From Candidatus Omnitrophota bacterium (GTDB lineage Bacteria > Omnitrophota > Gorgyraeia > Zapsychrales > Zapsychraceae): a DNA stretch of 64,000 bases. The notes beneath the pieces were generated by a model. It was not told the DNA's origin and did no database searches. It saw only the letters and a list, made by a program, of their open reading frames with translations. Positions 35,937 to 50,303 of the stretch are shown one piece after another. The stretch is from positions 10,594 through 74,593 of the forward strand of contig JAIORP010000068.1 of the NCBI GenBank assembly GCA_021108075.1. Direction: 5' to 3'. Within the stretch, counting starts at the first letter, position 1, and every line of letters starts with the position of its first letter. A program made the translations under genes and the position numbers.

Positions 35937-36011
35937 ACAAGTTGCGGGAACGGAGTAGACGTCGATGAGGACGCGTTCCATATCAAATCCACTTATGAAT
36001 TGTTTTATCTT

Positions 36012-36062
36012 AATTCTGAAAAGCAGAATGGGGTTTGGTCATTATTTAATGGAATTGGTATA
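36012..36062. repeat. MITE/REP-like repeat, half copy F
   Basis: AATTCTGAAAAGCAGAATGGGGTTTGGTCATTATTTAATGGAATTGGTATA. Confidence 0.7.
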
Positions 36063-36147
36063 AGCGGAGGGTTTAGCTTTCCGGTCGGCGATCATTGTCA
36101 GGATATGCTATAATTAAAAAAAGCCCTATAAATCATTCAACTGAGAT

Positions 36148-36671: not shown

Positions 36672-39600
36672 ATGTGGAATTTTATTCAAAATAAGAAATA
36701 TTATGTTTATAAGCAAATCACTGCGTTATGCATTGCTGTATCCTTTTTTGGATCAACAATATTCCCGGTTCCTTTAGCTCAAGCTCAGAGTGTGCCTGCA
36801 ACGGTTGGTCTGGATCTTCCAACCCCTGGGACAATGGTAACATTAAGCCCTGGATTTATACCCGCCGTTATTAAAGGCGTAAAAATTTTTCCTAATCAAC
36901 CTCTAAGATTTGATTTTATCGTTGACCCGGGAGACTCCGGGTTAAAAGGGACTGGTTTAAAAAGTGAAGCCAACAAACTCATTAAATATTTTCTCGCGGC
37001 AATAACTGTTCCCGAAGATGATATGTGGGTTAATCTTTCCCCATACGAGAAAGACAGAATAATTGCGGAAGGTTTTGGGAAGACTGAGATGGGGCGAGAT
37101 CTACTCGCGCAGGACTATATCTTAAAACAAATCACAGCATCCCTTATGTTTCCTGAAGAAGAAATTGGAAATGAATTCTGGGATAAGGTCTATCAAAAGG
37201 CGGTTGATTTATATGGCACGTCAGAGATCCCGGTTAATACATTTAATAAGGTGTGGATTATTCCAGAAAAAGCTATTGTTTATGAAAATGGCGATACTGT
37301 CTTTGTCTCAGAAAGTCATTTAAAGGTAATGCTCGAGGAGGATTATCTCGCGCTTGAGTATAATTCATTGAATAGTGAAAATGGTACTGACCAGATTAAT
37401 AAAAATGACGTGGAGCAACCGGATGATGTTTCCTCCTCTATCATAAGAGAAATTATTATTCCCGAATTAGAAAAAGAAGTGAATACAGGAAAGAATTTCG
37501 CGAATTTAAGACAGATTTTTAATTCTGTGATTTTGGCTACCTGGTTCAAACGGAATCTTAAAGAAAGTTTGTTAGGCAAAGTTTACATGGATCAAAACAA
37601 GGTCGAGGGTGTTAACACAGAAGATCGTCAGGTTAACGAAAAAATTTATCAGCAATATTTAGAGGCTTTCAAAGTTGGTGTATATGATTTTATTAAGGAA
37701 GATTATGACACAACAACACAAGAAGTTATTCCTCGAAAATATTTTTCAGGAGGAGCTCTTTTAGCTTTAAAAAATGCCTATAGGAAAAGGGACACGTCGG
37801 AAGGGGTTGCTGTAAGTGAAGACAGTATTGTTGCAGGTGTCCAGTTGGTTGCCGCCCCTCATAGTTATGCTAATAGAGCGGTTAGAGAGACAGGTGAGCT
37901 TCCGGATGTTTCTAATTTAGACGATTATAGGAACAATTTACCACAGGAAGTAATGGATGGCGTAAGACGATTTTTGCGTAGTGAGAAAGGATTAGAAGTA
38001 GACGAGAAGTTTATGCGTAATATTCCCATAATTTCAAGACCTGGATATTTATCAAAGTACGGTGAATTTGGACATGTTGGTCTGGGGGAGATGTATGGTG
38101 AAATAGTGATTTATCTGGATTCGGAATCTTTTGAAAATATAACGAGATTAGCCCATGAAATTGCTGAGGCCTTTAATTTCGAATCAGGTAGAAGGGACCT
38201 TTATGTGTCCAGTGAATTTATTACACAGCTCAGAGAATTTGTGGGAGAGTATGCTACAGAGTTAGAGAGCATTGGCCGCAATGGTCAGGACGCTATACAG
38301 AAATTTGAAGCTCATCTTAAAAATACTCCCGGAAAATCATTCGAGCCATGGATGATGCGTTGGTGGATCTGGGCTACTTCAGAAGGAAAAGAATTTGCTG
38401 ATCGTTCACATGATCTATCTCCCTCACTTGCTGAGGAATACGAAATAGCCGCTCAGGCGGGAAAGCTTCCAACGGGATTAAGGTTCACACCAACCCAATT
38501 AGATCAAGTCGATCGTAATGTAGCGGCAGGTAATAAAAGCCGCCAATTTTTAACACTGGATGATGTAAAAATCAGGGACAAACGGGTTCTAATTAGACTT
38601 GATATAAACGCGCCTGTTAGTGATGGAAAAATCAAACCAACGGAAAGGATTACAGCTTCATCAGAAACGATTAGAGAGGCGGCTGAAAGTGGAGCTAAAG
38701 TCGCTATTATCGCTCATCAAGGACGGCCGGGAGATGATGATTACATGGAATCGTTGGATCAGCACGCACAATTACTTTCAGAAAAGATAGGTCGCCCCGT
38801 TAGAGCAATAAATGATTTATACGGAGAAGAAGCACAGGAAGCGATCCGATCATTACAAAGTGGTGAAGTAATCATTCTGGGCAATGTTAGGCCAAAAGAA
38901 AAAGATCCAGAATTTGTGGCAAATCTTGAACCTTTATTTGACTTTTTTATATTTGATGGTTTTTCTGTCGCTCACAGGGATACAAATAGTGTTACAGGAT
39001 TTAAAAATATTCCAAACGTTGCCGGACGATTAATGGAAAGAGAGTTAGACGGAAATCAACGGTTTTTGACTGCCCTTGAGCATCCTTACGTGGAGTTATT
39101 GGGGGGGGCTAAGATTAGTGATCACGTAGACGCGTTAGATTATGGTTTAGAGCAGGGACTTATTGATCGTGTGCTTACCGGAGGCATGTTAGGTCAGTTG
39201 TTATTGCTTATTGATGGTTACCAATTAGGTGAGCCTACTATGAAGGTTTTGCGTGAGCAGGATGTGGATGAATCCCGACCGGAAGGTCTTTTAAGTTTAA
39301 TTCCACGAATTAGAGATATTTATGAAAGACACCGGGACAAATTTGAGTCACCCTCTGATCTCGCTTATGAAGATGCTGACGGTGAGAGACAGGAAATCGC
39401 GATTACTGATTTAGGTGAGGATGGCGCACCATTTGTCATTGGTGACAATGGGACAGAAACTGCTAACCGATACGCGGATATTTTAAGAGAAGCGAAGACA
39501 GGATTTGTGAAAGGTCCTCAGGGCAATTACAAGAATGATAATTTCAAAAAAAGTTCAGAGATTACTTTTGGAGCACTCGCGGATTCGGGGGCTTTCTGGA

Positions 39601-40043
39601 TGACAGGTGGTGGTGACACTGATCAATTAATTTCTGATTTAAAGCTTCAACCAAGCCATCGCACACTCGCGGGTGGCGCTTTTTTAAAATTTAAATCGGG
39701 AAAAGAACTTCCGGCGATAAGTCGTTTAGCTGAATCGAGAAAGCAACAAGGCGTTGGAGAAACAGATGGAGGTGACCGCGCGGTTTTAACTTCCGTGGCC
39801 AGTCCCGGTGGTATTGATTTTAATCCTAAAAATTTTGATATTCAATCTGAAGGGAAAGGGATGGATATCGACTTTGCCTTTGATCCGGCAAATTTTGAGA
39901 CAATGCCCGTAAATGGATTTATACCCGTTATTTTTCAAATCTCTCCGATTTCAAATTTCCCTTCATTATTGTTGGGTGTATCAGATCAAGAAGAAAAGCA
40001 GCAACTCACTCAACTCAAAAATTATACCAATTCCATCAAATAA
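36672..40043 (+). CDS. giant signal-peptide protein with paralog-shared N-cap and C-tail and an embedded full-length phosphoglycerate kinase-like domain
   Basis: Signal peptide ...PVPLAQAQS. The N-cap (about aa 40-330) is shared with 40150. About aa 630-1030 align end to end with PGK: KRVLIRLDINAPV..GKI, AHQGRPG, FDGFSVAHR, LLGGAKISD, TGGM, GGGDT, AGGAFL. Confidence 0.85.
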   Translation: MWNFIQNKKYYVYKQITALCIAVSFFGSTIFPVPLAQAQSVPATVGLDLPTPGTMVTLSPGFIPAVIKGVKIFPNQPLRFDFIVDPGDSGLKGTGLKSEANKLIKYFLAAITVPEDDMWVNLSPYEKDRIIAEGFGKTEMGRDLLAQDYILKQITASLMFPEEEIGNEFWDKVYQKAVDLYGTSEIPVNTFNKVWIIPEKAIVYENGDTVFVSESHLKVMLEEDYLALEYNSLNSENGTDQINKNDVEQPDDVSSSIIREIIIPELEKEVNTGKNFANLRQIFNSVILATWFKRNLKESLLGKVYMDQNKVEGVNTEDRQVNEKIYQQYLEAFKVGVYDFIKEDYDTTTQEVIPRKYFSGGALLALKNAYRKRDTSEGVAVSEDSIVAGVQLVAAPHSYANRAVRETGELPDVSNLDDYRNNLPQEVMDGVRRFLRSEKGLEVDEKFMRNIPIISRPGYLSKYGEFGHVGLGEMYGEIVIYLDSESFENITRLAHEIAEAFNFESGRRDLYVSSEFITQLREFVGEYATELESIGRNGQDAIQKFEAHLKNTPGKSFEPWMMRWWIWATSEGKEFADRSHDLSPSLAEEYEIAAQAGKLPTGLRFTPTQLDQVDRNVAAGNKSRQFLTLDDVKIRDKRVLIRLDINAPVSDGKIKPTERITASSETIREAAESGAKVAIIAHQGRPGDDDYMESLDQHAQLLSEKIGRPVRAINDLYGEEAQEAIRSLQSGEVIILGNVRPKEKDPEFVANLEPLFDFFIFDGFSVAHRDTNSVTGFKNIPNVAGRLMERELDGNQRFLTALEHPYVELLGGAKISDHVDALDYGLEQGLIDRVLTGGMLGQLLLLIDGYQLGEPTMKVLREQDVDESRPEGLLSLIPRIRDIYERHRDKFESPSDLAYEDADGERQEIAITDLGEDGAPFVIGDNGTETANRYADILREAKTGFVKGPQGNYKNDNFKKSSEITFGALADSGAFWMTGGGDTDQLISDLKLQPSHRTLAGGAFLKFKSGKELPAISRLAESRKQQGVGETDGGDRAVLTSVASPGGIDFNPKNFDIQSEGKGMDIDFAFDPANFETMPVNGFIPVIFQISPISNFPSLLLGVSDQEEKQQLTQLKNYTNSIK

Positions 40044-40132
40044 TGACCAAAGTCATAATGATATTCTCGCTAAATCGTCGAGAAAAGCAGAATTGGGTTT
40101 GGTCATTATTTGATGGAATTGGTATTAGTATA
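40021..40132. repeat. MITE/REP-like repeat, full palindromic copy E, overlapping the stop of the 36672 gene
   Basis: ATACCAATTCCATCAAATAATGACCAAA...GTCGAGAAAAGCAGAATT...TTTGGTCATTATTTGATGGAATTGGTAT is a perfect 28-bp terminal inverted repeat. Confidence 0.85.
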
Positions 40133-40149
40133 AATTGTGAGGATTTTTT

Positions 40150-43100
40150 GTGCGCGCAAAGAAACCGAACCGTTGTTTTGCTTTTTTAATGATCCTGGCT
40201 TTCGGGGTCAATGGCCTCATGCCGTATGCCTACGCGCGAACACCGCTCAGCTTACCTGAACCCGGGGTGATGGTTTCGACCAGTCCGGCGTTTGTGCCGG
40301 TCTTAATCCGGGGCATGACCCTCCATCCCAAAGACCCGTTCCGCCTGGATTTTATTATGGATAGCGGGAATACCGGCCTAGAAAATGACGCGATGAAAGA
40401 AGAGTCACAAAAACTGATCAAATATTTTCTCGCCTCAATGACAATCCCGCAAAACCATTTATGGGTCAACCTTTCGCCTTATGAAGGCGATAAAATCATT
40501 CCACCCTCTTTGGGCCGGACCATGCTGGGCCGTGACCTGCTGGCTCAGGATTATCTCCTGAAACAATTAACCGCGACGCTGATGTACCCGGAAGAAGGAT
40601 TGGGCCAGGAATTTTGGGAAAGGATTTACCGCCAGGCAAAGGAGAAATTCGGAACAACCGACCTGCCGGTGAACACGTTTAACAAGGTTTGGATTTTGCC
40701 GCAGAGCGCGGATGTCTATGAGCATGGCCGGACGGTTTATATTGTGGACAGCCGACTGAAGGTCATGCTGGACAGCGATTACCAGGCCATGATGACAGGC
40801 CATGAGACAATTAAAAATGACGCGATGATGGAATTAGGGGAAACGATGATCCGTGAGGTTATTCTTCCCGAGATTGAAAGAGAAGTGAATGAAGGCAAGA
40901 ATTTCGCGCCCTTACGGCAGATTTACCATTCCTTGATTTTAGCGAAGTGGTATAAAGAAACGATCAAGGAAAGCATCCTGTCTCTGTCTTACGTGGACCA
41001 GCATAAAGTGAACGGCATTGAATGGAACGACCCGGCGTTTAAGGACCGGATCTATGCCCGATATATGCGGGCGTATCAAAAAGGTGTTTTTAATTATATC
41101 AAAGAAGATTATGACCGCTTAAGCCAGGAATTGATCCCCCGCAAATATTTTTCCGGCGGTTTTCAGGACCGGGCCATCGCCTTCAACCGGCCGCGGATTG
41201 CCAGAGAAGATATCAAACCCGTCGGTGATTATGCCATGTTGTCTGTGTCTTTGGACCAGGTGCCCTTGATTACCGTCAGGCAGGCGGGCTTGACAGGGGG
41301 GTATAAAGTCTCAGGGGCCATAGAACTGGATGAGCAAAAACAAATGCTTTCGTTTGAGGGACTGCGCGATGAGAAGTCTGTTTCTGAAAGGGTCGAACTG
41401 CTCATTCAAAAACGCTTGACAAAAAGAGACGTGCTGGACAAAATCAGCCGTTACGCCGGGCATGAAATGATTGACGCGATGATCGCCTGGTTTATGGATG
41501 AGTCGACCATGAACGATATTGTTATTCTTCAACCGAACGCCCTGGGTGTTCACACGGTTTTTGACGTGCGCGTGCTGGCTGTTTCAGAAAATTTTGAAGA
41601 CGAAGGTCTTGTTTTTCTGCATGAAATCGGCCTGGCCATGGGACAAACCGCGGATTTAAACACGGTCCTGGAGGTCGTTGATGATAAAACCACAACACAT
41701 CCGCTCAAATTATCACCCGATAAAATTGTTCAGGACTATCTCGAGGATAAAGCGTGGTACGACCGGCATGTGCAGGTGACAGACAAGCAGGGCGTGAAAC
41801 TGCACTATGCTTTGCGGGCATTGTTCCGTGAACAGTTTTTTCTGGACGATATGGACCTGACGCACCGGATCAAAGTGGCTTTTGAATTTGCTGATGAGAA
41901 GTTGCGCGCGGATGGCGAAGATGTGGACCAGGAAAAACTTTTACAGGAATTAACGGATAAATACAATCGAATCAGCGCGGCCAAATGGGGAGAGAATCAA
42001 AGACAATCCTCGTGGTTTTTAAGGCTGCGGGATGCTAAAGAACGGGTTCTCGCGGCAAGAGACATTTCCTCCTCGCGGGTCGTTGATGAGATCCTCAGTT
42101 TTTATCTCAAGGCCACAGATCCTCAAGAGCCGGTTGAGCGCTATGAACCTTTTAATGCCTTTATCTCGACGACGTTTCAAGGGCGGAAACGGGAAGTGCT
42201 GGTGCCTGTTGTTAAGGAATTATATGGGATGATCATGTATGACAGCGTCTATGTCGACCAGAGAGTCCTATTAATATCGTTGATGTCAAATATTATGGCG
42301 GGTATATTTGAACTGGACCAGTCCATCGTGTCTGGGTTTGAAGTGCTTCTCTTGCGGGATATCCGGCGGTTTGTTTCCGATGAGGTTTTTGTCGCGCCCC
42401 ATCAAGTTAAGGGTATTGATCATTTAGAACGGTATTTTAAAATTGTGCCCGGAAAAGAGTCGTTTCGGACAGTCGTTCAAAAGGCGGCCTTTAGATTGCT
42501 GGGACGACAGCCGTCTGTATTGAGCGTGCCGCAACCGAGGTTGTATTTCCGTGAAGATTTTTTTAAAAAAGTCAGGGAGCAAAGAGATGTGGCTATAAAA
42601 AAACACTTGATCCGGGCGCATAAACAGGCGCATTTGTTTAGAAACGCTATTCGGTCTTTGAGCAACAGTCTGGTCGCGCGTGAGCGGGTCGGCACCCGGC
42701 GGCGCAAATTTACGCTCAGGGAAAACGCGGGTCTGCACATGGATGGATTGTTGCGTCAATTTCAGGAGACGAAAGACGCGGGGAAAAAGGTGTTTTTGGC
42801 AGAGCTTTTATTCTCGTGGTCGGGTTCAGGGCATGAATTTTGGAACAAAGGTAATGCCGGGACCTATCTGGAAGACCTGATGAAATTATTGCCTCAAACA
42901 AAAACAGTCATGCAGAAAAGATCTCTCTTGCAGCAGGCCTTAGGGTTGCCGGTGATGACGATGGAACGGTCCTTGCGGCAGCGCTTTGTCGACTTTGTGT
43001 CCGGGGAACTGGCCGGATTGTTTTCTAAGGTGACGGAATTGGGCGTCGACATTGACCAGGATTTTCAGGACCTGGACGAACGTTATCCGGATGGTTATGA

Positions 43101-44934
43101 TCCTTTAAAAGATAAAGGGCTGGATGATAAGGTTTATGAGCAGCACAATTTGATGGTTGACATTCATCTGCGGATGTGGATATTGACAAAACTGGCGTTA
43201 GAGGGCATGAAGAGCCCGGACACGTCCTCAATCGGTCATGGCATCATACAAAATTTATGGGAGAGCGTTAATAACAGGCCATGGGACAAGAATATCAAAT
43301 CGATGATGATGACACATTTGGAGCCGTTTATTGTTCAAGGCGGATTTGTTTCCGATCGAAGCTTCGCGTCCGTGGTTCGTCCGTCGGATGAATTTTTTTC
43401 TGAGTTAAAGCGTGCCGGGTATCTGAATTGGAATGGGATGATCACGAATCAATTTGTGCGCTTAAAAAGTTCAGCGGAAATGGACCTGCCCGAAAAATAC
43501 CGGGATTTGAAAGAGAGCATTTATCAGGTATTTCAAGAGGCCTTAGACCGGTCAAATCCCGCTGTTGATTCTGCGTTCGCGGAATTGAAATCCCGGATCG
43601 ACCCGGGGCTGGTGAACACGGTGGAACGCGTTGTTTACGGCCGGGCGGAAGAATTTTCGGACGCCATTGTTTCTATTCTGGAGCAAAATGTCCTCAATGA
43701 TAATGTGACTTTTTTTATTTTAATGCGTCATAGTATGGACGAGCAATTGCTCGAAAGAATCGTTTTTAATGAGAATATCCGGATCGAAACCCGGCTGTAT
43801 GCCGCTTCCTGGCTTTTTCCGTCGATGACAACCGGGCGGGCCGCGCGATTGGTTGAGAGCCTCGCGGATGAAACAGAAGCGTTCATCCGCCGGACGATCA
43901 GAGATAATAACCGGGTCCGGTCTTTATTTGATAATGAGCTTTTACAGGATGAAGAAATCAAGGTTTACATGTTAGGCATGCTGATTGACACGCGGCGGCA
44001 TTTAACCCCGATGTCGATGAAGGCTTTTATCTCCATCTCCCGACGGATCCGTTCGGCCGAGGCCTTCGCGTATTTAAACAACGCGAACGCTTATTTCACG
44101 TTCGGGGGGAAGATTTTAGCCGGAACAACAGAACCGGCGGCATTGTTTTATGAAATTCTGAGCCACGAAATATTGCACGCCATTTTGCAAGAGGAACACG
44201 GTTACCGCGGCCAGACGCTCAAAGATTTCACGTTGGAGGAAATGTTGTCTGACATCCACAGTTATATGTTCGCCGACCGGATGGGCATCGAAGATAGTTA
44301 CCGCATTGACGCGGCCAAAATCGATAATTTTTTCAAGGCCGTTAAAGGGAATGATTATTTTACGGTAGAGAGCCATGAGGGCGCGCGGGCCCAGCTGAAA
44401 ATTTTGATAGAACGCCTGGAGGAACTCGGGATCAGTCTACATTGGCAGACGCTGTTAAGGATCGGTATCGCGATGATCCGGGATCCTCTGGTGCGGGAGC
44501 GGTCTCTGGAAGAGACGGTCTCCATCTGGGTTAAGACCGCGTTTTTCGAGCGGCATGGTTTCGCCCGGGTCAAACACAATGAGTTTTATCAGCGTTTTTT
44601 TGATGCCCCGGCGAGCAGTGACGCCGATAAGGATAGAATAAAGATTCTGGACGGCGAGGGCGTTGATAGGGCATTGGACCAGGACAGGGCGATGCTTCCG
44701 GGCGAGGAAGAGGTCGGAGGGATAGACCTGCAGGGCATTGACGTGAACCGTCAGGGCGAGGGGTTTGAGATTCAATTTGATCCGGCATCATTCCGGCAAA
44801 ACGGGGGTCAGGGCATCAACGGGCTTACGCCTGTCATTATCAATGTCACGCCCATTCAGAATATCCTGCCGCTGCTCGGCCTGGGGTCGGACAATGTGTC
44901 TGGATCGCTGGAGCTTTCGCAAAGCAGGGATTAG
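40150..44934 (+). CDS. giant signal-peptide protein, paralog of 36672 (shared N-cap and C-tail), core contains an HExxH motif
   Basis: GTG start after AGGA. Signal peptide ...AYARTP. N-cap similar to 36672 (LIKYFLA, WVNLSPYE, GRDLLAQDY, PVNTFNKVWI). HEILH near aa 1340. C-tail is similar. Confidence 0.85.
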   Translation: MRAKKPNRCFAFLMILAFGVNGLMPYAYARTPLSLPEPGVMVSTSPAFVPVLIRGMTLHPKDPFRLDFIMDSGNTGLENDAMKEESQKLIKYFLASMTIPQNHLWVNLSPYEGDKIIPPSLGRTMLGRDLLAQDYLLKQLTATLMYPEEGLGQEFWERIYRQAKEKFGTTDLPVNTFNKVWILPQSADVYEHGRTVYIVDSRLKVMLDSDYQAMMTGHETIKNDAMMELGETMIREVILPEIEREVNEGKNFAPLRQIYHSLILAKWYKETIKESILSLSYVDQHKVNGIEWNDPAFKDRIYARYMRAYQKGVFNYIKEDYDRLSQELIPRKYFSGGFQDRAIAFNRPRIAREDIKPVGDYAMLSVSLDQVPLITVRQAGLTGGYKVSGAIELDEQKQMLSFEGLRDEKSVSERVELLIQKRLTKRDVLDKISRYAGHEMIDAMIAWFMDESTMNDIVILQPNALGVHTVFDVRVLAVSENFEDEGLVFLHEIGLAMGQTADLNTVLEVVDDKTTTHPLKLSPDKIVQDYLEDKAWYDRHVQVTDKQGVKLHYALRALFREQFFLDDMDLTHRIKVAFEFADEKLRADGEDVDQEKLLQELTDKYNRISAAKWGENQRQSSWFLRLRDAKERVLAARDISSSRVVDEILSFYLKATDPQEPVERYEPFNAFISTTFQGRKREVLVPVVKELYGMIMYDSVYVDQRVLLISLMSNIMAGIFELDQSIVSGFEVLLLRDIRRFVSDEVFVAPHQVKGIDHLERYFKIVPGKESFRTVVQKAAFRLLGRQPSVLSVPQPRLYFREDFFKKVREQRDVAIKKHLIRAHKQAHLFRNAIRSLSNSLVARERVGTRRRKFTLRENAGLHMDGLLRQFQETKDAGKKVFLAELLFSWSGSGHEFWNKGNAGTYLEDLMKLLPQTKTVMQKRSLLQQALGLPVMTMERSLRQRFVDFVSGELAGLFSKVTELGVDIDQDFQDLDERYPDGYDPLKDKGLDDKVYEQHNLMVDIHLRMWILTKLALEGMKSPDTSSIGHGIIQNLWESVNNRPWDKNIKSMMMTHLEPFIVQGGFVSDRSFASVVRPSDEFFSELKRAGYLNWNGMITNQFVRLKSSAEMDLPEKYRDLKESIYQVFQEALDRSNPAVDSAFAELKSRIDPGLVNTVERVVYGRAEEFSDAIVSILEQNVLNDNVTFFILMRHSMDEQLLERIVFNENIRIETRLYAASWLFPSMTTGRAARLVESLADETEAFIRRTIRDNNRVRSLFDNELLQDEEIKVYMLGMLIDTRRHLTPMSMKAFISISRRIRSAEAFAYLNNANAYFTFGGKILAGTTEPAALFYEILSHEILHAILQEEHGYRGQTLKDFTLEEMLSDIHSYMFADRMGIEDSYRIDAAKIDNFFKAVKGNDYFTVESHEGARAQLKILIERLEELGISLHWQTLLRIGIAMIRDPLVRERSLEETVSIWVKTAFFERHGFARVKHNEFYQRFFDAPASSDADKDRIKILDGEGVDRALDQDRAMLPGEEEVGGIDLQGIDVNRQGEGFEIQFDPASFRQNGGQGINGLTPVIINVTPIQNILPLLGLGSDNVSGSLELSQSRD

Positions 44935-45080
44935 CCTTCCGTTATAGCGTTCATTTTTGTGTTTATACATGTATTGTTGCTAAGTTCTATCCTCTGGTCG
45001 GGAACGGATACACGGACAGGGAAAATTTTTTTGACGGCAGGGAAAAAAGGGTTTACTTGGAGTGTTTTTTATGTATAATA

Positions 45081-45163
45081 ATACCAATTCCATTAAATAA
45101 TGACCAAAATCAATTCTGCTTTTCAGAATTAAGATAGAACAATTTATTAATGGATTTGGTATT
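45081..45163. repeat. MITE/REP-like repeat, copy C
   Basis: ATACCAATTCCATTAAATAATGACCAAAATCAATTCTGCTTTTCAGAATT...TTAATGGATTTGGTAT. Confidence 0.85.
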
Positions 45164-45242
45164 ATACAACCTTGAGCGATAGTAGCGTGCCTGTGATCGC
45201 TTCAGGACATTGTCAGAAAAAATATTGGTAAGAAATAAATTT

Positions 45243-45317
45243 GGGGTTGTAGTTCAGCCTGGTTAGAACGCCTGCCTGTCACGCAGGAGGTCGCGAGTTC
45301 GAATCTCGTCAACCCCG
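45243..45317 (+). tRNA. tRNA-Asp (anticodon GTC)
   Basis: Cloverleaf with acceptor GGGGTTG/CAACCCC. Anticodon loop CTGTCAC. T-loop TTCGAAT. CCA not encoded. Confidence 0.95.
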
Positions 45318-45323
45318 TTTTTT

Positions 45324-45357
45324 TAAAAGCCCAAATTAATAATTTGGGCTTTTTTGT
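45324..45357. terminator. bidirectional intrinsic terminator after tRNA-Asp
   Basis: aaaGCCCAAATTaataAATTTGGGCtttttt flanked by A- and T-runs. Confidence 0.7.
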
Positions 45358-45653
45358 CGACGATAACCCGCTCCTTAATTTTTGCACTTAGGATTACTTT
45401 CAAGCTTTCTGCTGTGCCCTCAATTACCACATTTTGCTACATTTTACCCTTCCAAATGGCACCAAAATGGCACCACTTTTTTCAATCCCTTCTTAGCGCC
45501 TAAAATAAGCATCAAATGTCAAAATATAGATCCCCATTATAATGCTAGCTAGGTTTTGGTTGGTGCTAAATCTTGTCATCTATGCAGATAAACTAATATG
45601 GCTAGATATTCAATAAACTGACTTTTTGGGATACCTTGCGACGAGTCAAGTCA

Positions 45654-45682
45654 TTGACAATAATATGACTGAAGGATAGAAT
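45654..45682 (+). promoter_or_regulatory. consensus sigma70-like promoter (TTGACA-17 nt-TAGAAT) at right end of leader copy 1
   Basis: TTGACA 45654-45659. TAGAAT 45677-45682. 17-nt spacer. Confidence 0.6.
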
Positions 45683-45927
45683 GGTTGTATATTTTTTAGG
45701 GGGGAACCTATTTTATAAATGTCTATTTATGTCGGGAATGATATCCAGCCCCGCAGGATGAACTGCTTCAACGACTGTCCTGCGAATAGCTATTACCGAT
45801 AAAAAGCGACATTTTTTATCGGTTTATGCCATAAAAAATGTAAATTTTAAACGATGGAAATGAAATTAAACCAGCTATGTCCGGTTGATCCAGTAAACCG
45901 GACAGTCGTATATTAAATGTTATCTTC

Positions 45928-45996
45928 AAGTAAATGAAGAATGAGGCGTGAAGAAATTCCCATGTTTTGTTCGAAGCATCGTTGGTTACGGGAGAA
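45928..45996 (+). repeat. about 70-bp direct repeat flanking IS630 (left copy), contains mini-ORF MKNEA
   Basis: AAATGAAGAATGAGGCGTGAAGAAATTCCCATGTTTTGTTCGAAGCATCGTTGGTTACGGGAGAA matches the sequence at 47368-47436. Confidence 0.6.
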
Positions 45997-46108
45997 AATA
46001 TTGGTAGCGGAGGCAGCCTGATTCGGAATGGGGGATTTGTTGCGAGGGTGTTACTAGATCCAACAACAGTAAAATTAAAGAAATTTAGTTATATAGATAG
46101 TTTCATGA

Positions 46109-47260
46109 AATTTGCAATATAGCTTGACGAGAACATAACGAATCTATAAGCTGAATACAATGAACGCTATTAAAAGCTCGACGTATTCAACATATGAGGT
46201 TCGAGAGAGAGCCGTTAAAGCTGTGCTATTGGGGCAACAAAAGGTAGCTGTCGCTAAAGCATATCAGGTTGACTACTCTACACTGTTTCGTTGGTGCCAA
46301 CGTTATGAAGGCACTAAAAAATTTTCAGCATTAGCACGTCAGCCTGGTAGCGGACGTCCTAATCTTTTAGATATTCAAACACGAGAAAATTTTCTTAAAA
46401 TTATTACTCAGCCAGCCTCTGAATTTGGATATGAAACTGACTTCTGGACATGTCGCAGGTTAATGCAAATTACTGAACAACGATTAAAGATTAAGGTTTC
46501 TAAGCCAACAATGTGGCGGATATTACGCGATATAGGTTTAACTTACCAAAAACCTGAACGCCGATATTTTGAAACTAATGATAAACTACGAAAAAAATGG
46601 CTTCGTTATGAAGTCCCAAAGATTAAGCGTTCTGTAAAAAAATATCGAGCCATTCTCTATTTTCAGGATGAGTCACATATTTCTTTGACGACGGTATTAG
46701 GAAAGACATGGGCTCCAAAAGGTCAAACGCCAATGCAACGAGTTACTGGTAATCGCGGTGGTTTTGCGGCTATGTCAGCAATTAGCCAAGTTGGAAAATT
46801 AATTTTTCGACTTCATCAAAAACGCATTACTTCTGTAGAAGTTATTGATTTTCTTAAACAGATGCTTAAGCATCATAAATATCGAAATGTAGTAGTGGTC
46901 ATGGATCAAGCTAGACCACATGTATCAAAGAAAACACAAGCATTTATCAAAGAACAGAAAAGATTGCATGTTTTTTATTTGCCATCTCGTTCTCCGGATT
47001 TGAATCCAGATGAACAGGTTTGGAATCATTTGAAACATCAAGAACTCAAAGGCAATGCATCCAGAACAAAAAAAGAACTTAAAAATTTAACCAATAGGAA
47101 GTCCCGAAATCCAGAATTACTAAATGGTATTTTCTTTAGATCCTGCATGGCAAGCTTCTTAAACTAAGCAACCTGTAAATATTTCTCGTCGGATTCTTAA
47201 TAGCGTTCTCTATTTTCAACGTCTTTTTAATTTCTCCTCCGTCGAGGCATATTGCAGATT
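46109..47260 (+). mobile_element. IS630-family insertion sequence (about 1.15 kb) with imperfect terminal inverted repeats
   Basis: Left TTTGCAATATAGCTTGACGAG. Right, as reverse complement, ATCTGCAATATGCCTCGACGGAG. Encloses the transposase ORF. Confidence 0.75.
46160..47167 (+). CDS. IS630-family (Tc1/mariner-like DDE) transposase
   Basis: N-terminal HTH region and DDE core (QDESHISL, MDQARPH, PSRSPDLNPDEQVW). Confidence 0.9.
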   Translation: MNAIKSSTYSTYEVRERAVKAVLLGQQKVAVAKAYQVDYSTLFRWCQRYEGTKKFSALARQPGSGRPNLLDIQTRENFLKIITQPASEFGYETDFWTCRRLMQITEQRLKIKVSKPTMWRILRDIGLTYQKPERRYFETNDKLRKKWLRYEVPKIKRSVKKYRAILYFQDESHISLTTVLGKTWAPKGQTPMQRVTGNRGGFAAMSAISQVGKLIFRLHQKRITSVEVIDFLKQMLKHHKYRNVVVVMDQARPHVSKKTQAFIKEQKRLHVFYLPSRSPDLNPDEQVWNHLKHQELKGNASRTKKELKNLTNRKSRNPELLNGIFFRSCMASFLN

Positions 47261-47367
47261 TTTTGAAATTATCTATAACACAATAAAAAGATAACAACTC
47301 GCTCCATCGGGCAGTCCTGCGCCACCTTCGTCGGCTTGTTCTGCCGATGAGCTCAAGGCGTTATATT

Positions 47368-47436
47368 CAAATAAATGAAAAATGGTGCGTGAAGAAATTC
47401 CCATATTTCGTTCGAAGCAATGTTGGTGGTGGGAGA
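47368..47436 (+). repeat. about 70-bp direct repeat flanking IS630 (right copy), contains mini-ORF MKNGA
   Basis: AAATGAAAAATGGTGCGTGAAGAAATTCCCATATTTCGTTCGAAGCAATGTTGGTGGTGGGAGAA. Confidence 0.6.
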
Positions 47437-47609
47437 ATGACGTTGTCTCAGAATCCTAACCCACCAAATGGACTAGTTTTGGGGGAAAGGTCATATTATG
47501 GATAGAAAAAGTTCTAAAAATAGAACAGGTTTTTGGGGATTTATTTTTTGCACAGGCATTGAACCAACGAGCGCAATATATAAACTTTTCCTTATAAAAA
47601 GGCATTTAC

Positions 47610-49661
47610 ATGTCGATTAATCCTCTTGGCAATATAAAGGCAGAAAATGATCATATAATGCTAGATGCAGCTTTTTATGATACTCAAGAATATAATTCCC
47701 TTATCGAAGACTCTGCTCATCGCATAGTCATCGGTAGACGTGGGACAGGAAAAAGTGCTTTATTTTATAGGCTTCAGAAGCATTGGGGTCATGAAAAAAA
47801 GTCGAATATAATAATTTTATCTCCAGGTGAAACTTATATTATCGGAATTCGTTTTTTTATTAATTGTTTTGGCGACAATCCTTCATATTTAAGAGCTGCT
47901 TGTAAAATTCTTTGGGAGTATGCAATTTTAAATGAAATTATTATAAATTTAGTGCAGGAATATAAGATAAAAAGTGAAACATTATTAAATGATTTGAACT
48001 CTTTCAGAAGTAACTGGGTTAAAGGAGGAAGCAATATTGCATCAAGATTATATTTTCTTTTACAAAATAAATTGAATATTAAAGAGCCAGCTGAAGTAAA
48101 AATAGCCAACTTAACGCGAACTTTAGAAATTAGTAGGGTAAGAAATTTAGTTGCGGACTCTTTTAAATTTTCAAGATATAAATATCGTATAATATCAGAT
48201 CGCTTAGATGAGGGATATGAACCGGATGATAGGGGTGTTGCAATAATCAGCGGATTACTAAGTGCTTTAGATATAGTAACATCATCAATAGAGAGTGTCT
48301 CGTCTGTTACATTTTTAAGAGATAATATTTTTCGTGCCGTGCAACGTTGTGATCCGGATTATTCGAGAAATATCGAAGGTGACATTTTGCGAATACATTG
48401 GGATGAATATCATTTGTTTAATATGATATGTAACCGTATAAGGAAGTCTTTTAAGATATCTCGTGAGCAGAATCTTGTAACCTGGAATAAGGTTACAGCA
48501 AAAGGTGTTACTGGTAAAGAAGGATTTAGAAAATGTCTTCGACAAACATTATATCGTCCTCGTGATTTGTTAGTGCTATTAAATAATGCATTTAACTCCG
48601 CATTGTCTCATAAAAGGAATGAAATAGTTGACGAGGATATTGAATTATCAGCAAAAGACATATCATGTTCACGACTAGATGATCTCAAAAAAGAATACAA
48701 ATCTGTATTACCAGGTTTGGAAGAAATTATTAAGATATTTTCCGGAGGAAGTCCAAAATTTATAGTTTTAGAAGCTAATAAGTTAATGCAGTCTTTGTTT
48801 GATTTGGATGATGTTAATTCTCTAGCTAGACAAACATTAGCAATTATGCAATCACCTTCAGAAGTCTTGAGGATGCTTTTTAGTATCGGGTTTATTGGAA
48901 TTTTAAATAAGGATTCATCTTGTTACGTCTACTGTCATGACGGAAAAGAACCGGATGTCTCAATAGATGAAAAAGCAAATATATTAATACATCCCTGTTA
49001 TTGGATAGCATTGAATTTGCATAATGTCGATTTAGAAGAAGAAATTCGTGATGAGATCCATGATGAATATGATATTGAAGTATGTTCTGAAACTCCTGAG
49101 ATACGTAGTAAAAAAATAGGTCAATTGATTTCAGAATTGAGTTTAATAGACGAAGGAAAAGAACACGCTTCAATGTTTGAGGATTGGTGTTTAAAGGCCA
49201 TACGGATTATTTTTGCTAAAGGTATTGTTAATGTTGAACTTCATCCTAATAAAAATTTAACGCAAAGAAGGGATGTTGTAGGTCGAAATACTGGTGAAAC
49301 GAATGCGTGGAGAAGGATTCTAAATGATTTTAAAGTAAGGCAGGTTATATTTGAAATTAAGAATTATTCGAAAGACCTAAGCGGAGATGAGTATAGGCAA
49401 ATGCTATCATATCTTACTAATGGTTATGGAAAGCTAGGTTTTATAGTCAAGAGAGGAAGTGATGAAACTTTGAGGAAAGGCAAAGAACTGAGGTGGGCCA
49501 AAGAGATCTATGATAAGCATGACAAACGTATTGTTGTTAAATTAACAGACAGTTTTATAGTGCGTTGTCTTTCAAAATTAAGAAATCCTCAGAAACATGA
49601 TGCTCCAGATAAACAACTAAGTTCTCTTTTAGATAATTATCAACGGAGATATCTTAGCTGA
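47610..49661 (+). CDS. P-loop NTPase fused to C-terminal PD-(D/E)xK (restriction-endonuclease-like) domain; candidate single-gene defense protein
   Basis: Walker A VIGRRGTGKSA near the N-terminus. The C-terminal 150 aa have a D...(E-x-K) pattern (RRDVVG ... IFEIKNYSK). Cargo of cassette 1. Confidence 0.7.
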   Translation: MSINPLGNIKAENDHIMLDAAFYDTQEYNSLIEDSAHRIVIGRRGTGKSALFYRLQKHWGHEKKSNIIILSPGETYIIGIRFFINCFGDNPSYLRAACKILWEYAILNEIIINLVQEYKIKSETLLNDLNSFRSNWVKGGSNIASRLYFLLQNKLNIKEPAEVKIANLTRTLEISRVRNLVADSFKFSRYKYRIISDRLDEGYEPDDRGVAIISGLLSALDIVTSSIESVSSVTFLRDNIFRAVQRCDPDYSRNIEGDILRIHWDEYHLFNMICNRIRKSFKISREQNLVTWNKVTAKGVTGKEGFRKCLRQTLYRPRDLLVLLNNAFNSALSHKRNEIVDEDIELSAKDISCSRLDDLKKEYKSVLPGLEEIIKIFSGGSPKFIVLEANKLMQSLFDLDDVNSLARQTLAIMQSPSEVLRMLFSIGFIGILNKDSSCYVYCHDGKEPDVSIDEKANILIHPCYWIALNLHNVDLEEEIRDEIHDEYDIEVCSETPEIRSKKIGQLISELSLIDEGKEHASMFEDWCLKAIRIIFAKGIVNVELHPNKNLTQRRDVVGRNTGETNAWRRILNDFKVRQVIFEIKNYSKDLSGDEYRQMLSYLTNGYGKLGFIVKRGSDETLRKGKELRWAKEIYDKHDKRIVVKLTDSFIVRCLSKLRNPQKHDAPDKQLSSLLDNYQRRYLS

Positions 49662-49727
49662 AAGTATTTTTAATGAAAAATTAAACCATGCCTCAAATTA
49701 AAGGCATTTTAAATCACTGTCTGTGTA

Positions 49728-49880
49728 GTGACCTGCCCCAACTAGTTGCTCCATTAATTGTGGGAGACCGATGGTTGATGGAACTATCCTAGGTTTCATA
49801 TAGATTTTATTTTAGGACAGGATCATTAAAATCCCCCTAATATGTTAATAAACAGGTTCTAAACTTGTCTAACCATCCCC
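49728..49880 (+). repeat. cassette trailer repeat, copy 1 (about 150 bp) ending in CCATCCCC
   Basis: GTGACCTGCCCCAACTAGTTGCTCC...TTCTAAACTTGTCTAACCATCCCC. Repeated at 51770-51922. Confidence 0.85.
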
Positions 49881-49889
49881 GCCATTTAA

Positions 49890-49924
49890 CCCGAGTTCGT
49901 TTAACGACGAGCTCGGGTTTTTTG
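49890..49924 (+). terminator. intrinsic terminator at start of leader copy 2
   Basis: CCCGAGTTCG-loop-CGAGCTCGGG followed by T7. Confidence 0.7.
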
Positions 49925-50220
49925 TCGACGATAACCCTCTCCTTAAATTTCGCATTTAGGATTACTTTCAAACTTTCTGCTGTGCCCTGAATTACTACAT
50001 CTTGCTACATTTTACCCTTCCAAATGGAACCAAAATGGCACCGCTTTTTTAATCCCTTCTTATCGTCCAAAATCAGCATCAAATATCAAAATATGGATCA
50101 CCATTACAATGCTAGCTAGGTTTTGGTTGGTGGTAAATTTTGTCATCAGTGCGTATAAACTAATATGGCTTGATATTCAATTAACTGACTTTTTGGGGCA
50201 CCTTGCGATGAGTCAAGTCA

Positions 50221-50249: not shown

Positions 50250-50303
50250 GATTGTATGTTTTTTGGCGATAATATCGGATATTGATATCTTCCATTATTC
50301 AAC

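What the first reader, a model, noticed from the sequence alone, without database searches (positions are those of the whole stretch)
36672..44934. Two giant paralogous signal-peptide proteins with conserved N- and C-caps and swapped cores
The proteins are 1123 and 1594 aa. Both begin with a cleavable-looking signal peptide. They share an about 300-aa N-terminal domain (LIKYFLA..WVNLSPYE..GRDLLAQDY..PVNTFNKVWI) and an about 60-aa C-terminal tail (FDPAxF...G..PVIxxhxPIxNxxxLLGxSD), but have unrelated middles.

This cap, variable-cargo, tail design is reminiscent of polymorphic secreted effector or adhesin families. Neither cap matches a sorting signal I know (not PEP-CTERM, LPXTG, T9SS-CTD or GlyGly-CTERM). 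A MITE-like repeat sits exactly at the junction between the two genes.
Basis: partly seen in the sequence, partly recalled or inferred. Interest (0 to 1): 0.75.

Follow-up and report, generated by a model that had tools for sequence, protein, structure and literature searches.

The report
Omnitrophota cap-and-tail exported protein family
These two adjacent genes belong to a very large, undescribed protein family found only in Omnitrophota bacteria, in which a secretion signal, a novel N-terminal "cap" domain and a short C-terminal "tail" surround interchangeable cargo, here a complete glycolytic enzyme that would normally stay inside the cell.

Summary
ORF A (1123 aa) and ORF B (1594 aa) share a signal peptide, a ~320-aa N-terminal cap (52% identity, E 6e-111) and a ~75-aa C-terminal tail (34%, E 3e-9). 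Their middles are unrelated.

B's 1160-aa core has no homologue except a strain variant.

The pair is not a private paralogy:
- The cap hits more than 4600 protein clusters and at least 591 sites in species-representative genomes, essentially all Omnitrophota.
- The tail profile hits 4715 cluster representatives, always at the C-terminus.
- Where DNA context is available, cap and tail occur together (66 of 75 complete genes).

The signal peptide fits the signal peptidase I rule across the family (-1 Ala 94%, +1 Gln 95%). The cap models confidently (pTM 0.82) but has no structural neighbour. No Pfam or NCBIfam model, and no paper searched, covers cap or tail.

About one third of cargos carry cytoplasm-type enzymes (PGK, PFK, PGM, PGI, kinases, signalling domains). 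The rest are orphans.

Best reading: a phylum-specific export and handling cassette with exchangeable cargo. What cap and tail do after export is inferred, not shown.

The parts
36672..40043 (+). ORF A, 1123 aa: signal peptide + cap + orphan module + PGK + tail. It is NCBI MCD4779818.1, annotated there from an internal start as a 930-aa 'phosphoglycerate kinase'.
36672..36785 (+). Signal peptide of A (aa 1-38). Predicted signal peptidase I cleavage is ...LAQA|QS.
   Evidence: family-wide cleavage-site profile
36786..37754 (+). Cap domain of A (aa 39-361), ending in the invariant ...IPRKYFSGG.
   Evidence: AF2 pLDDT 83.5 and pTM 0.82; no structural neighbour
37755..38555 (+). Orphan module of A (aa 362-628). 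No family or PDB match. Among 345 family members only one, P0137, matches, and only over short stretches.
38556..39704 (+). Complete phosphoglycerate kinase domain (aa 629-1011). The closest solved relative is the archaeal PGK 2CUN. The 3-PG-binding motifs are kept. The nucleotide-site motif NGPMGVFE is replaced by KGPQGNYK.
39774..39788 (+). DRAVL (aa 1035-1039), a variant of the family's DxAM[LIV] inter-module motif, 7 residues before the tail GG.
39807..40040 (+). Tail of A (aa 1046-1123): GGIDFNP...NGFIPVIFQISPISNFPSLLLG, then an acidic end.
40020..40135 (.). MITE/REP-like palindromic repeat at the A/B junction. It is a perfect 28-nt inverted repeat with a 46-nt spacer. It belongs to a dispersed repeat family and is not part of the protein system.
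40150..44934 (+). ORF B, 1594 aa: signal peptide + cap + orphan core + tail (NCBI MCD4779819.1, K8S27_04630, hypothetical). The GTG start lies 7 nt after GAGGA.
40150..40236 (+). Signal peptide of B (aa 1-29), with predicted cleavage ...YAYA|RT.
40237..41160 (+). Cap domain of B (aa 30-337), ending ...IPRKYFSGG.
41227..41241 (+). DYAML (aa 360-364), a DxAM[LIV] motif 23 residues after the end of the cap.
41161..44715 (+). Orphan core of B (aa 338-1522). The only hit among 5.8 billion proteins is a 98%-identical strain variant. 22 of the 24 strain differences fall here and none in the cap.
44137..44355 (+). Possible zincin-like metallopeptidase region of B (aa 1330-1402, HEILH). The match is weak and below Pfam's threshold.
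   Evidence: PF18818, E 0.0049, 17.4 bits against a cut-off of 27.5; ArdC, E 0.5
44683..44697 (+). DRAML (aa 1512-1516), a DxAM[LIV] motif 6 residues before the tail GG.
44716..44931 (+). Tail of B (aa 1523-1594): GGIDLQG...NGLTPVIINVTPIQNILPLLGLG.

Best explanation
ORF A and ORF B are two tandem members of a very large, Omnitrophota-restricted family of modular, Sec-exported proteins.

Each member has four parts:
- A cleavable signal peptide (A/V/S-x-A|Q).
- A ~320-aa cap domain with a fold that has no detectable relative.
- A freely exchangeable cargo of about 200 to more than 3400 aa.
- A ~65-80-aa tail: GGIDLNP...GFxPVIINITPxxNLPLLLG, then an acidic end.

In A the cargo is an orphan module plus a complete phosphoglycerate kinase. 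In B it is an orphan 1160-aa region.

Cap and tail are the constant handles. They travel together, evolve far more slowly than the cargo, and are set off from it by conserved punctuation:
- an invariant SGG at the end of the cap;
- an invariant GG at the start of the tail;
- DxAM[LIV] motifs in the linkers.

The most likely mechanism is this. The protein is exported by Sec and cut by signal peptidase I. Cap and tail then act outside the cytoplasm as shared sorting, anchoring or assembly modules, possibly removed by processing at the punctuation sites. They place many different cargos in the same extracytoplasmic location: periplasm, cell surface or the host/prey interface of these host-dependent nanobacteria.

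Shown: the architecture, family size and phylum restriction, the cap-tail pairing, the signal-peptide pattern, the absence of a known fold or family, and the cargo repertoire.

Inferred: actual export, what cap and tail bind, any proteolytic processing, and where the cargo acts.
For: Architecture:
- Cap and tail are shared between A and B and the cores are unrelated.

Family size and range:
- The cap search gives 1336 hits. The full-length A search gives 4609 hits among a capped 8000 candidates. Named hits are almost all Candidatus Omnitrophota.
- Only 3 hits occur in 2.9 million viral contigs.

Position and pairing:
- The cap always starts about 40 aa from the N-terminus, in ORFs of 638 to more than 3700 aa.
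- 20 of 79 loci hold 2-4 cap genes, often 0-130 nt apart, like A and B.
- 66 of 75 complete cap ORFs carry the tail. The exceptions, and the 12 tail-only ORFs, are cut by the locus start, N-runs or frameshifts.
- The tail profile hits 4715 cluster representatives, always at the extreme C-terminus.

Export:
- 100 of 102 cap ORFs have a positively charged n-region and a hydrophobic core.
- The cleavage site is -3 A/V/S, -1 Ala 94%, +1 Gln 95%, with Pro at -5/-6.
- A and B have no other transmembrane segment.

Constraint:
- The cap is 50-68% identical across the phylum and has about 35 invariant residues.
- B's core has no homologue except a strain variant.
- B and that variant differ at 24 residues: 0 in the signal peptide plus cap, 22 in the core, 2 in the tail.

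Novelty of the handles:
- The AF2 cap model has pLDDT 83.5 and pTM 0.82.
- No Pfam or NCBIfam hit covers cap or tail in 20 members.

Punctuation:
- S323-G324-G325 are invariant and are followed by a disordered stretch.
- The GG starting the tail is 99-100% conserved.
- DxAM[LIVM] occurs at 0.77 per 1000 aa, against 0.05 in shuffled sequences and 0.16 in other ORFs. It sits at module borders.
Against: - No experiment or proteomic datum was available, so export is inferred from sequence alone.
- Recognisable cargos are ATP-, SAM- or acetyl-CoA-dependent enzymes that have no obvious use in a periplasm: PGK, PFK, ROK kinase, thymidylate kinase, HATPase_c, response regulator, GGDEF, DnaJ.
- No conserved neighbouring gene for a secretion, sorting or processing machine was found in 79 loci or in the window.
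- A few members have a strong transmembrane helix right after the cap. This would put their cargo back in the cytoplasm, so the location of cargo may not be uniform.
- 21 of 50 tail-bearing database proteins of 600 aa or more lack a cap in the called protein. These may be fragments, or they may be genuine exceptions.
Confidence: 0.5

Rival explanations
1. Head-to-tail self-assembly. The tail of one molecule docks onto the cap of another (or of the same molecule), as in donor-strand complementation. The family would then polymerise into an extracytoplasmic coat or matrix that displays the cargos.
For: - In the AF2 model of a minimal cap-linker-tail member (P0045), the first half of the tail (GGIDFNANNFNLKEQGQKVDINF, residues 563-585) forms strands with pLDDT 81-91 between disordered stretches. 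The hydrophobic second half stays below 50, as if waiting for a partner.
- The N-terminal arm of the cap and the tail share a GFxPxxI...P motif. hhalign aligns 25 columns at 36% identity with P 0.019.
- The same match is visible as an 80%-identical 25-nt DNA repeat inside ORF A, 36851-36875 vs 39914-39938.
- Cap and tail columns covary (MI z up to 9.3).
- Seymour et al. (PMC10066038) relay a proposal that a Velamenicoccus giant protein forms an extracellular coat.
Against: - No contact map or multimer model could be obtained.
- The hhalign probability is only 2.4%.
- The covarying cap columns also covary with one another, as subfamily signatures would.
- The high pLDDT of the hairpin could come from packing on the helical linker rather than on the cap.
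Confidence: 0.15
2. Effector delivery. The proteins are secreted and moved into the host or prey cell, where ATP and other cofactors are available. The cap would act as the translocation or membrane-insertion module and the cargo would rewire prey metabolism or signalling.
For: - Cargo enzymes need cytoplasmic cofactors.
- Omnitrophota are described as host-dependent or predatory, and some encode ATP/ADP translocases (PMC10066038).
- Cores diverge extremely fast while the handles are constrained, as expected for host-interaction proteins.
- The top, non-significant Foldseek hits of the cap are ClyA-family pore formers: NheA, MakB and MakA.
Against: - No injection machinery is linked to the genes.
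- Sending ordinary glycolytic enzymes into prey has no known precedent.
Confidence: 0.12
3. Exported polyprotein precursors. Cap and tail are pro-regions and the DxAM[LIV], SGG and GG motifs are cleavage sites. Processing would release the individual cargo modules.
For: - The DxAM motif is strongly enriched. It lies in hydrophilic linkers exactly between modules, with up to 10 copies per protein.
- The motif is conserved at the peptide level and not the nucleotide level, because third codon positions vary freely.
- Invariant GG motifs bracket the cargo.
- West-Roberts et al. (10.1101/2023.11.21.568195) report C39 (double-glycine) and S8 peptidase domains in Omnitrophota giant proteins and suggest cleavage into several products.
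Against: - No protease is linked by gene neighbourhood.
- Many lineages in the family lack DxAM motifs altogether.
- Pro-regions would not be expected to be the most conserved parts of the protein.
- Known C39 domains act on short N-terminal leader peptides on the cytoplasmic side.
Confidence: 0.12
4. Not exported. Either the N-terminal hydrophobic segment is an uncleaved membrane anchor that tethers enzymes as a membrane-bound metabolon, or the enzymes are made from internal start codons as in the NCBI annotation of A.
For: - NCBI annotates A as a 930-aa PGK starting inside the cap.
- The cargo enzymes are cytoplasm-type.
- P0125 (cap + iPGM + PGK) and P0129 (cap + PFK + iPGM) join glycolytic enzymes in one chain, consecutive steps in P0125, as a metabolon would.
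Against: - The NCBI start removes the signal peptide and half of a domain conserved in thousands of proteins.
- The n-region is positive, so the chain after the hydrophobic segment would be outside the membrane. The -3/-1 site is canonical and about 94% conserved.
- SD-like sequences are not enriched before the Met of the DxAM motif: 7.5% against 9.7% for all internal Met codons.
Confidence: 0.08

Closest known systems
Omnitrophota giant 'multi-enzyme metabolic cluster' proteins (Nielsen & Lui 2026, bioRxiv 10.64898/2026.06.07.730766; West-Roberts et al. 2023, bioRxiv 10.1101/2023.11.21.568195)
   Same: - Same phylum.
- Signal peptide at the N-terminus.
- Same cargo repertoire: HATPase_c, GNAT, HAD, HD, NUDIX, ROK, starch synthase, response regulator, GGDEF, methyltransferase, HEAT.
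- 11 cap genes in the fetched loci run beyond 3600 aa.
   Different: - Those papers treat proteins of 10,000 aa or more, mostly with many transmembrane helices, and state that the N-terminal regions lack identifiable domains.
- Neither describes a conserved cap, tail or linker motif.
- A and B are 1-1.6 kaa and have no transmembrane segment beyond the signal peptide.
Type IX secretion cargo with a conserved C-terminal domain (Bacteroidota)
   Same: A Sec signal peptide, highly diverse cargo and a conserved C-terminal module of about 80 aa, shared by many proteins in one genome.
   Different: - No match to the T9SS C-terminal-domain models in Pfam or NCBIfam.
- This family also has an obligatory 320-aa N-terminal domain.
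- The hydrophobic, proline-rich second half of the tail is predicted to be disordered rather than a beta-sandwich.
LapA/RTX-type giant adhesins (type I secretion, with an N-terminal retention module, a protease-cleavable linker and a C-terminal secretion signal)
   Same: A constant N-terminal module, a short conserved motif just after it, a very variable and often giant middle, and a constant C-terminal signal.
   Different: - Those proteins have no Sec signal peptide and carry RTX nonapeptide repeats. Here the Sec signal is canonical and no RTX repeats are found.
- The cargos here are enzymes or orphan regions, not adhesin repeats.
Polymorphic toxin systems (Rhs, CdiA, LXG and similar)
   Same: Conserved trafficking parts combined with hypervariable parts, tandem gene arrays and rapid turnover of the variable region.
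   Different: - In those systems the variable part is the extreme C-terminus and is paired with an immunity gene. Here both ends are constant and the variable part is internal.
- No small conserved downstream gene is present.
- No toxin or trafficking domain models match.
Cellulosomal dockerin-bearing enzymes
   Same: Many unrelated enzymes share a small docking module that brings them to one extracellular assembly.
   Different: - No dockerin or cohesin signature is present.
- The cargos are not carbohydrate-active exoenzymes.
- Docking is only hypothesised here.

Membership tests
Sec / signal peptidase I signal peptide | A basic n-region, a hydrophobic core of about 12-18 aa, and small uncharged residues at -3 and -1 | tested here: met
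   - 100 of 102 cap ORFs have a net-positive n-region and a hydrophobic 12-mer.
- -3 is A/V/S (80%), -1 is Ala 94%, +1 is Gln 95%, and Pro sits at -5/-6.
- This is a heuristic test. No dedicated signal-peptide predictor was available.
Phosphoglycerate kinase (cargo of ORF A) | A full-length match to the PGK family | tested here: met
   PF00162 E 2e-82, profile positions 1-379 of 379. Best PDB match is 2CUN, E 1.7e-59.
Phosphoglycerate kinase (cargo of ORF A) | An intact catalytic and ligand-binding motif set | tested here: inconclusive
   - The motifs RxDxN, HQGRP, NVR, AHR, GGAK and GGGDT are present.
- The nucleotide-site motif NGPMGVFE is KGPQGNYK in A and its four closest cap-PGK relatives. 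Other cap-PGK fusions keep NGPMGxF[DE].
T9SS C-terminal sorting domain | A match to the Por_Secre_tail / TIGR04183-type models | tested here: not met
   No Pfam or NCBIfam hit in the tails of A or B at E <= 0.1. No Pfam hit in the tails of 18 further members at E <= 1e-5.
PEP-CTERM / GlyGly-CTERM / LPXTG-type sorting signals | A short motif followed directly by a transmembrane helix and a basic cluster at the extreme C-terminus | tested here: not met
   - The GG lies about 45 aa before the hydrophobic stretch.
- That stretch carries three conserved prolines.
- The C-terminal end is acidic rather than basic.
- No NCBIfam hit.
Autotransporter (type V secretion) | A C-terminal beta-barrel translocator domain | tested here: not met
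   The tail is only 65-80 aa and is partly disordered in the model. No Pfam hit.
RTX / type I secretion adhesins | GGxGxD nonapeptide repeats near the C-terminus and no Sec signal peptide | tested here: not met
   No HemolysinCabind hit. A canonical Sec signal is present.
Polymorphic toxin systems | A variable C-terminal toxin domain with an adjacent immunity gene | tested here: not met
   The C-terminus is the conserved part. No conserved small downstream gene exists. B is followed by a repeat and tRNA-Asp.
ClyA-family alpha pore-forming toxins (NheA, MakA/B) | Significant fold similarity: an elongated helical bundle with a beta-tongue | tested here: not met
Zincin metallopeptidase (core of ORF B) | An HEXXH motif within a match above the family threshold | tested here: inconclusive
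   HEILH is present. PF18818 scores 17.4 bits against a cut-off of 27.5. ArdC in the PDB scores E 0.5.
Secretion or sorting machinery dedicated to this family | A gene co-occurring with the family, by neighbourhood or by phyletic pattern | tested here: inconclusive
   - By neighbourhood the result is negative. The best neighbour cluster occurs in 16 of 79 loci, about 2.7 kb away, and nothing is found in the window.
- Genome-wide phyletic co-occurrence could not be tested.

The most novel reading that the evidence does not exclude
Omnitrophota use a previously unknown targeting and assembly code: a mature N-terminus Q[ST]VLNLPxPG on a novel-fold cap, plus a GGIDLNP...PVIINITP...LLLG tail. With it they place whole sets of cytoplasm-type enzymes outside their own cytoplasmic membrane, including glycolytic steps (PGK, PGM, PFK, PGI, sugar kinases), nucleotide enzymes and signalling modules. 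This would mean either extracytoplasmic ('exo-cytoplasmic') metabolism at the host interface or injection of metabolic enzymes into prey. The same code would also be the N- and C-terminal grammar of at least part of the phylum's giant multi-enzyme proteins.
Probability: 0.25. Interest if true: 0.95.

Novelty: new variant of a known kind. Interest (0 to 1): 0.8.

Why it matters
- Omnitrophota are ubiquitous, mostly uncultured, ultra-small and apparently host-dependent bacteria. Their giant, poorly annotated proteins are an open puzzle (PMC10066038; bioRxiv 10.1101/2023.11.21.568195; 10.64898/2026.06.07.730766).
- This finding gives that puzzle a handle. The cap-tail grammar has thousands of members, two conserved modules, defined boundary motifs and a canonical signal peptide. 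It can be searched for, modelled, expressed and looked up in existing metaproteomes.
- It corrects annotation. ORF A is filed at NCBI as an ordinary, N-terminally truncated phosphoglycerate kinase. Metabolic reconstructions that count such genes as cytoplasmic glycolysis may be wrong if the proteins are exported.
- If the cargo enzymes are active outside the cytoplasm or inside prey, that would be a new mode of bacterial host exploitation.
- The cap is also a candidate new fold.

Tried and rejected
1. Known sorting signals, secretion domains and toxin modules. Pfam and NCBIfam scans of A, B and 18 other members found nothing on cap or tail.
2. Known fold for the cap.
   - The afdb50 library was unavailable.
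3. ClyA-like pore former. The hits are faint Foldseek matches only, so this is not supported.
4. Internal translation starts at the Met of DxAM. Rejected: third codon positions vary freely and SD-like motifs are not enriched.
5. Conserved neighbouring machinery. None was found in 79 loci or in the window.
6. Cap-tail coevolution by mutual information. There is a signal, but subfamily structure confounds it.
7. Homology between the cap's N-terminal arm and the tail. hhalign gives P 0.019 and probability 2.4%, which is suggestive only.
8. Identity of B's core and A's first module. There is no homologue beyond a strain variant and no PDB relative.
9. The MITE-like repeat as part of the system. 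Rejected: copies also lie at 8644 and 25398, away from cap genes.
10. A phage or mobile origin. Only 3 hits occur in 2.9 million viral contigs.
11. Literature.
    - No paper contains the motif strings.
    - The three Omnitrophota papers read do not describe the family.
    - Kizina et al. 2022 (AEM) could not be retrieved.
12. Whether the genome has a second, cap-less PGK.
Full report
**1. What is in the window**

The two ORFs are as described. ORF A is 36672..40043 (+, 1123 aa). ORF B is 40150..44934 (+, GTG start 7 nt after GAGGA, 1594 aa).

BLASTP of A against B gives two matches:
- An N-terminal match of 319 aa at 52% identity (E 6e-111; A43-361, B29-337).
- A C-terminal match of 96 aa at 34% identity (E 3e-9).
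- Nothing in between.

tblastn shows no further copy of either end in the 64-kb window. Each protein has one hydrophobic segment, at the N-terminus, followed by a small-x-small site. Neither has any other segment with transmembrane-like hydropathy.

The middle of A is not anonymous. Residues 629-1011 are a complete phosphoglycerate kinase domain (PF00162, E 2e-82, whole profile). B's middle has only a sub-threshold zincin match around an HEILH motif.

The window comes from a 168-kb contig of a Candidatus Omnitrophota MAG. NCBI lists A as a 930-aa 'phosphoglycerate kinase' (MCD4779818.1) starting at an internal codon. That start removes the signal peptide and half of the cap. B is listed as hypothetical protein K8S27_04630.

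**2. The pair belongs to a very large family**

- A search with the cap alone returned 1336 significant clusters.
- A search with full-length A returned 4609 among a capped 8000 candidates.
- Nearly all named hits are Candidatus Omnitrophota/Omnitrophica. The few other labels are on short contigs or on MAGs labelled 'uncultured Planctomycetales'.
- Only 3 of 2.9 million viral contigs carry the cap.

In the 79 fetched loci I called ORFs and searched them with an HMM of the cap.
- The cap always begins about 40 residues from the N-terminus.
- Complete genes range from 638 to 3341 aa (median 1545).
- 11 genes run past the 10-kb flank, so they exceed 3600 aa.
- 20 loci hold 2-4 cap genes, frequently 0-130 nt apart like A and B.

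**3. The tail is the cap's obligatory partner**

- 66 of 75 complete cap ORFs end with the tail. The nine exceptions are fragments created by frameshifts or N-runs.
- The 12 ORFs with a tail but no cap are all cut by the locus start or otherwise interrupted.
- The consensus is DxAML, about 12 residues, then (V/P)GGIDLNPxxLxLQxxG/RDxGxxLPxxxQxxxxxxIxGFxPVIINITPItNLPLLLG, then an acidic stretch, then often LSxLN. G, G, I, G, P, I, P and G are 93-100% conserved.
- A profile of the tail, searched against 1.84 billion cluster representatives, hits 4715 proteins (1674 at E <= 1e-10). In all of the best 150 hits listed the match lies at the extreme C-terminus.
- Among hits of 600 aa or more, 29 have the cap and 21 do not. 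Without DNA context I cannot say whether those 21 are contig-edge or internal-start artefacts or genuine exceptions.

**4. The N-terminus is a canonical cleavable Sec signal**

Across 170 members aligned on the start of the cap:
- The n-region is basic and the hydrophobic core is about 15 aa.
- Pro sits at -5/-6 (64% at one position).
- -3 is A/V/S (80%), -2 is bulky (Y/Q/F) and -1 is Ala in 94%.
- +1 is Gln in 95%.
- The mature N-terminus Q[ST]VLNLPxPG is nearly invariant.

100 of 102 ORFs with a complete 5' end have the hydrophobic core and a net-positive n-region. This is what signal peptidase I substrates look like. The positive n-region would place the rest of the chain outside the membrane. 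Export is therefore the most economical reading, but it remains an inference from sequence.

**5. Cap and tail are unknown to the domain libraries, to the PDB and to the literature I could search**

- The cap, modelled with 104 sequences, gives mean pLDDT 83.5 and pTM 0.82. It is a mixed alpha/beta domain of six long helices and two beta-hairpins.
- Foldseek against the PDB gives nothing with E <= 0.001. Its top entries are ClyA-family toxins with probability <= 0.08 and TM about 0.12, which I treat as noise.
- Pfam and NCBIfam have no model for either end in A, B or 18 other members.
- No paper in the library contains the motif strings.
- The three relevant Omnitrophota papers describe giant proteins whose N-terminal regions 'lack identifiable domains', or with 'few annotated domains'. 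None mentions this cassette.

**6. The cargo**

- Of the 118 newly returned hits to A, about one third have a precomputed Pfam domain. Of 18 further mid-size members, only 3 do. Most cores are therefore orphans, like B.
- B's 1162-aa core finds only a 98%-identical strain variant among 5.8 billion proteins. That variant differs at 24 residues: none in the signal peptide plus cap, 22 in the core and 2 in the tail.
- Where domains are recognisable they are overwhelmingly cytoplasm-type:
  - PGK (seven members).
  - iPGM. P0125 is cap + iPGM + PGK. P0129 is cap + PFK + iPGM.
  - PGI, ROK kinase, His_Phos_1, UDPGP, isocitrate/isopropylmalate dehydrogenase and thymidylate kinase.
  - HATPase_c, response regulator, GGDEF and PP2C.
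  - DnaJ, NUDIX, HAD, GNAT, methyltransferase, Macro and starch synthase.
  - A few peptidases, HEAT repeats and LysM.
- This is the same repertoire reported for the phylum's giant 'multi-enzyme' proteins.
- PGK has been recruited at least twice.
  - A and four relatives carry an archaeal-like PGK (best PDB match 2CUN). The 3-PG site is kept. The nucleotide-site motif NGPMGVFE is changed to KGPQGNYK, and that change is conserved within the subgroup.
  - Other fusions keep the canonical motif but have large insertions.

**7. Punctuation between modules**

- The cap ends in invariant S-G-G, after which the model becomes disordered. The tail begins with an invariant GG.
- A motif DxAM[LIVM] occurs at 0.77 per 1000 aa in cap proteins, against 0.05 after shuffling and 0.16 in other ORFs of the same loci. 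It sits in hydrophilic linkers just after the cap, just before the tail and between internal modules, with up to 10 copies per protein.
- It is a peptide-level signal. Third codon positions are free and SD-like sequences are not enriched, so it is not an internal start site.
- A and B carry it as DRAVL (aa 1035), DYAML (aa 360) and DRAML (aa 1512).
- An SSP[VIL] motif is similarly enriched near the tail.

**8. How it most likely works**

The constant parts behave as handles and the middle as a payload.
- They are inherited together.
- They are far more constrained than the cargo.
- They are separated from the cargo by conserved boundary motifs.

Together with the canonical Sec signal, the best-supported model is a phylum-specific export and handling cassette. 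After export and signal-peptide cleavage, cap and tail would give very different cargos a common fate: retention, sorting, assembly, or removal by processing.

What cap and tail bind is unknown. A model of a minimal member (P0045, 633 aa) gives one hint:
- The first half of the tail forms a confident small hairpin (pLDDT 81-91).
- The hydrophobic, proline-rich half is disordered (pLDDT below 50), as if it needs a partner.

That hydrophobic half weakly resembles the N-terminal arm of the cap. hhalign gives P 0.019, and an 80%-identical 25-nt repeat is present inside ORF A. Head-to-tail docking is therefore a live rival, but I could not obtain contacts. The covariation signal is confounded by subfamily structure.

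The other rivals are delivery into prey, polyprotein processing, and membrane tethering without export. They are laid out with their tests in the rival section.

The main difficulty for every export model is that many cargos need ATP, SAM or acetyl-CoA. The main difficulty for every non-export model is the textbook signal peptide.

**9. Context**

- No secretion, sorting or protease gene is conserved next to cap genes. None lies in the window.
- The 30 kb upstream is a cluster rich in B12-binding radical-SAM enzymes.
- Downstream lie the repeat, tRNA-Asp, a transposase and a defence island.
- The junction repeat is a dispersed palindromic element unrelated to the proteins.

**10. Verdict**

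It is not a member of any known sorting-signal, secretion-domain or toxin family. Each defining feature that I tested was not met.

In kind it resembles modular 'signal + constant handle + variable cargo' systems such as T9SS cargo, LapA-type adhesins, dockerin enzymes and polymorphic toxins. I therefore rate it a new variant of a known kind. There is a substantial chance (about 0.25) that it reflects something categorically new: extracytoplasmic or prey-directed deployment of central-metabolic enzymes.

Noticed in passing
window 40020-40135; also 36000-36064, 45071-45165, 8644-8671, 25398-25425: A dispersed MITE/REP-like palindromic repeat. The junction copy is a perfect 28-nt inverted repeat that folds to -54 kcal/mol (z -11.3). 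Its first arm encodes the last codons and the stop of ORF A. Copies flank both cap genes but also occur elsewhere (6 arms against 0 expected).
   Followed up: partly
window 36672-40043 (NCBI MCD4779818.1): The public annotation starts ORF A at an internal codon (930 aa, 'phosphoglycerate kinase'). This drops the signal peptide and half of the conserved cap. Metabolic reconstructions would count it as an ordinary cytoplasmic PGK.
   Followed up: yes
family-wide; in the window at 39774-39788, 41227-41241 and 44683-44697: DxAM[LIV] is a peptide-level punctuation motif between modules of cap-family proteins. It is about 16-fold enriched over shuffled sequence and occurs up to 10 times per protein. 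SSP[VIL] is a second enriched linker motif. Whether either is a protease site is unknown.
   Followed up: partly
window 38556-39704 and relatives P0122-P0125: The cap-fused PGK subgroup is archaeal-like (best PDB match Pyrococcus 2CUN). It has KGPQGNYK in place of the nucleotide-site motif NGPMGVFE. Other cap-PGK fusions (L034, L008, L026, P0189) keep the canonical motif but carry large insertions. PGK was therefore recruited as cargo more than once.
   Followed up: partly
window 53814-58003, with 52656-53669: A Hachiman-type defence pair, HamA (E 2e-97) and HamB (1121 aa, E 0), sits in a block of GC 0.51 (elsewhere the window's 2-kb GC ranges 0.34-0.48). A TIR-domain protein lies next to it (PADLOC TIR-TM, E 3.5e-14).
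   Followed up: partly
window 45242-51635: tRNA-Asp is followed by a DDE_3 (IS630-like) transposase, a 683-aa ATPase with a weak ORC/Cdc6-like N-terminus, and an FkbM methyltransferase. This looks like an integration hotspot or island starting right after ORF B.
   Followed up: no
window about 2200-34000: A long co-directional cluster with at least 11 radical-SAM genes, six of them with B12-binding domains. It also holds an epimerase, a methyltransferase, a polysaccharide deacetylase, an amine oxidase, a PMT_2 glycosyltransferase and a GDSL lipase. Its product is unknown.
   Followed up: no
window 1-64000: All 36 ORFs of 150 aa or more are on the + strand, and GC skew is positive in every 2-kb bin. 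This is an extreme strand bias over 64 kb.
   Followed up: no
window 71-847: An ORF matching the C-terminal two thirds of a serpin (PF00079, E 2.5e-91, profile positions 116-370). It is either truncated or its start was called too far in.
   Followed up: no
P0019 (432 aa, 2.4-kb contig): A cap followed, after about 40 residues, by what looks like the C-terminal end of ribosomal protein S9 (PF00380). This could be a genuine odd cargo or a chimeric assembly.
   Followed up: no
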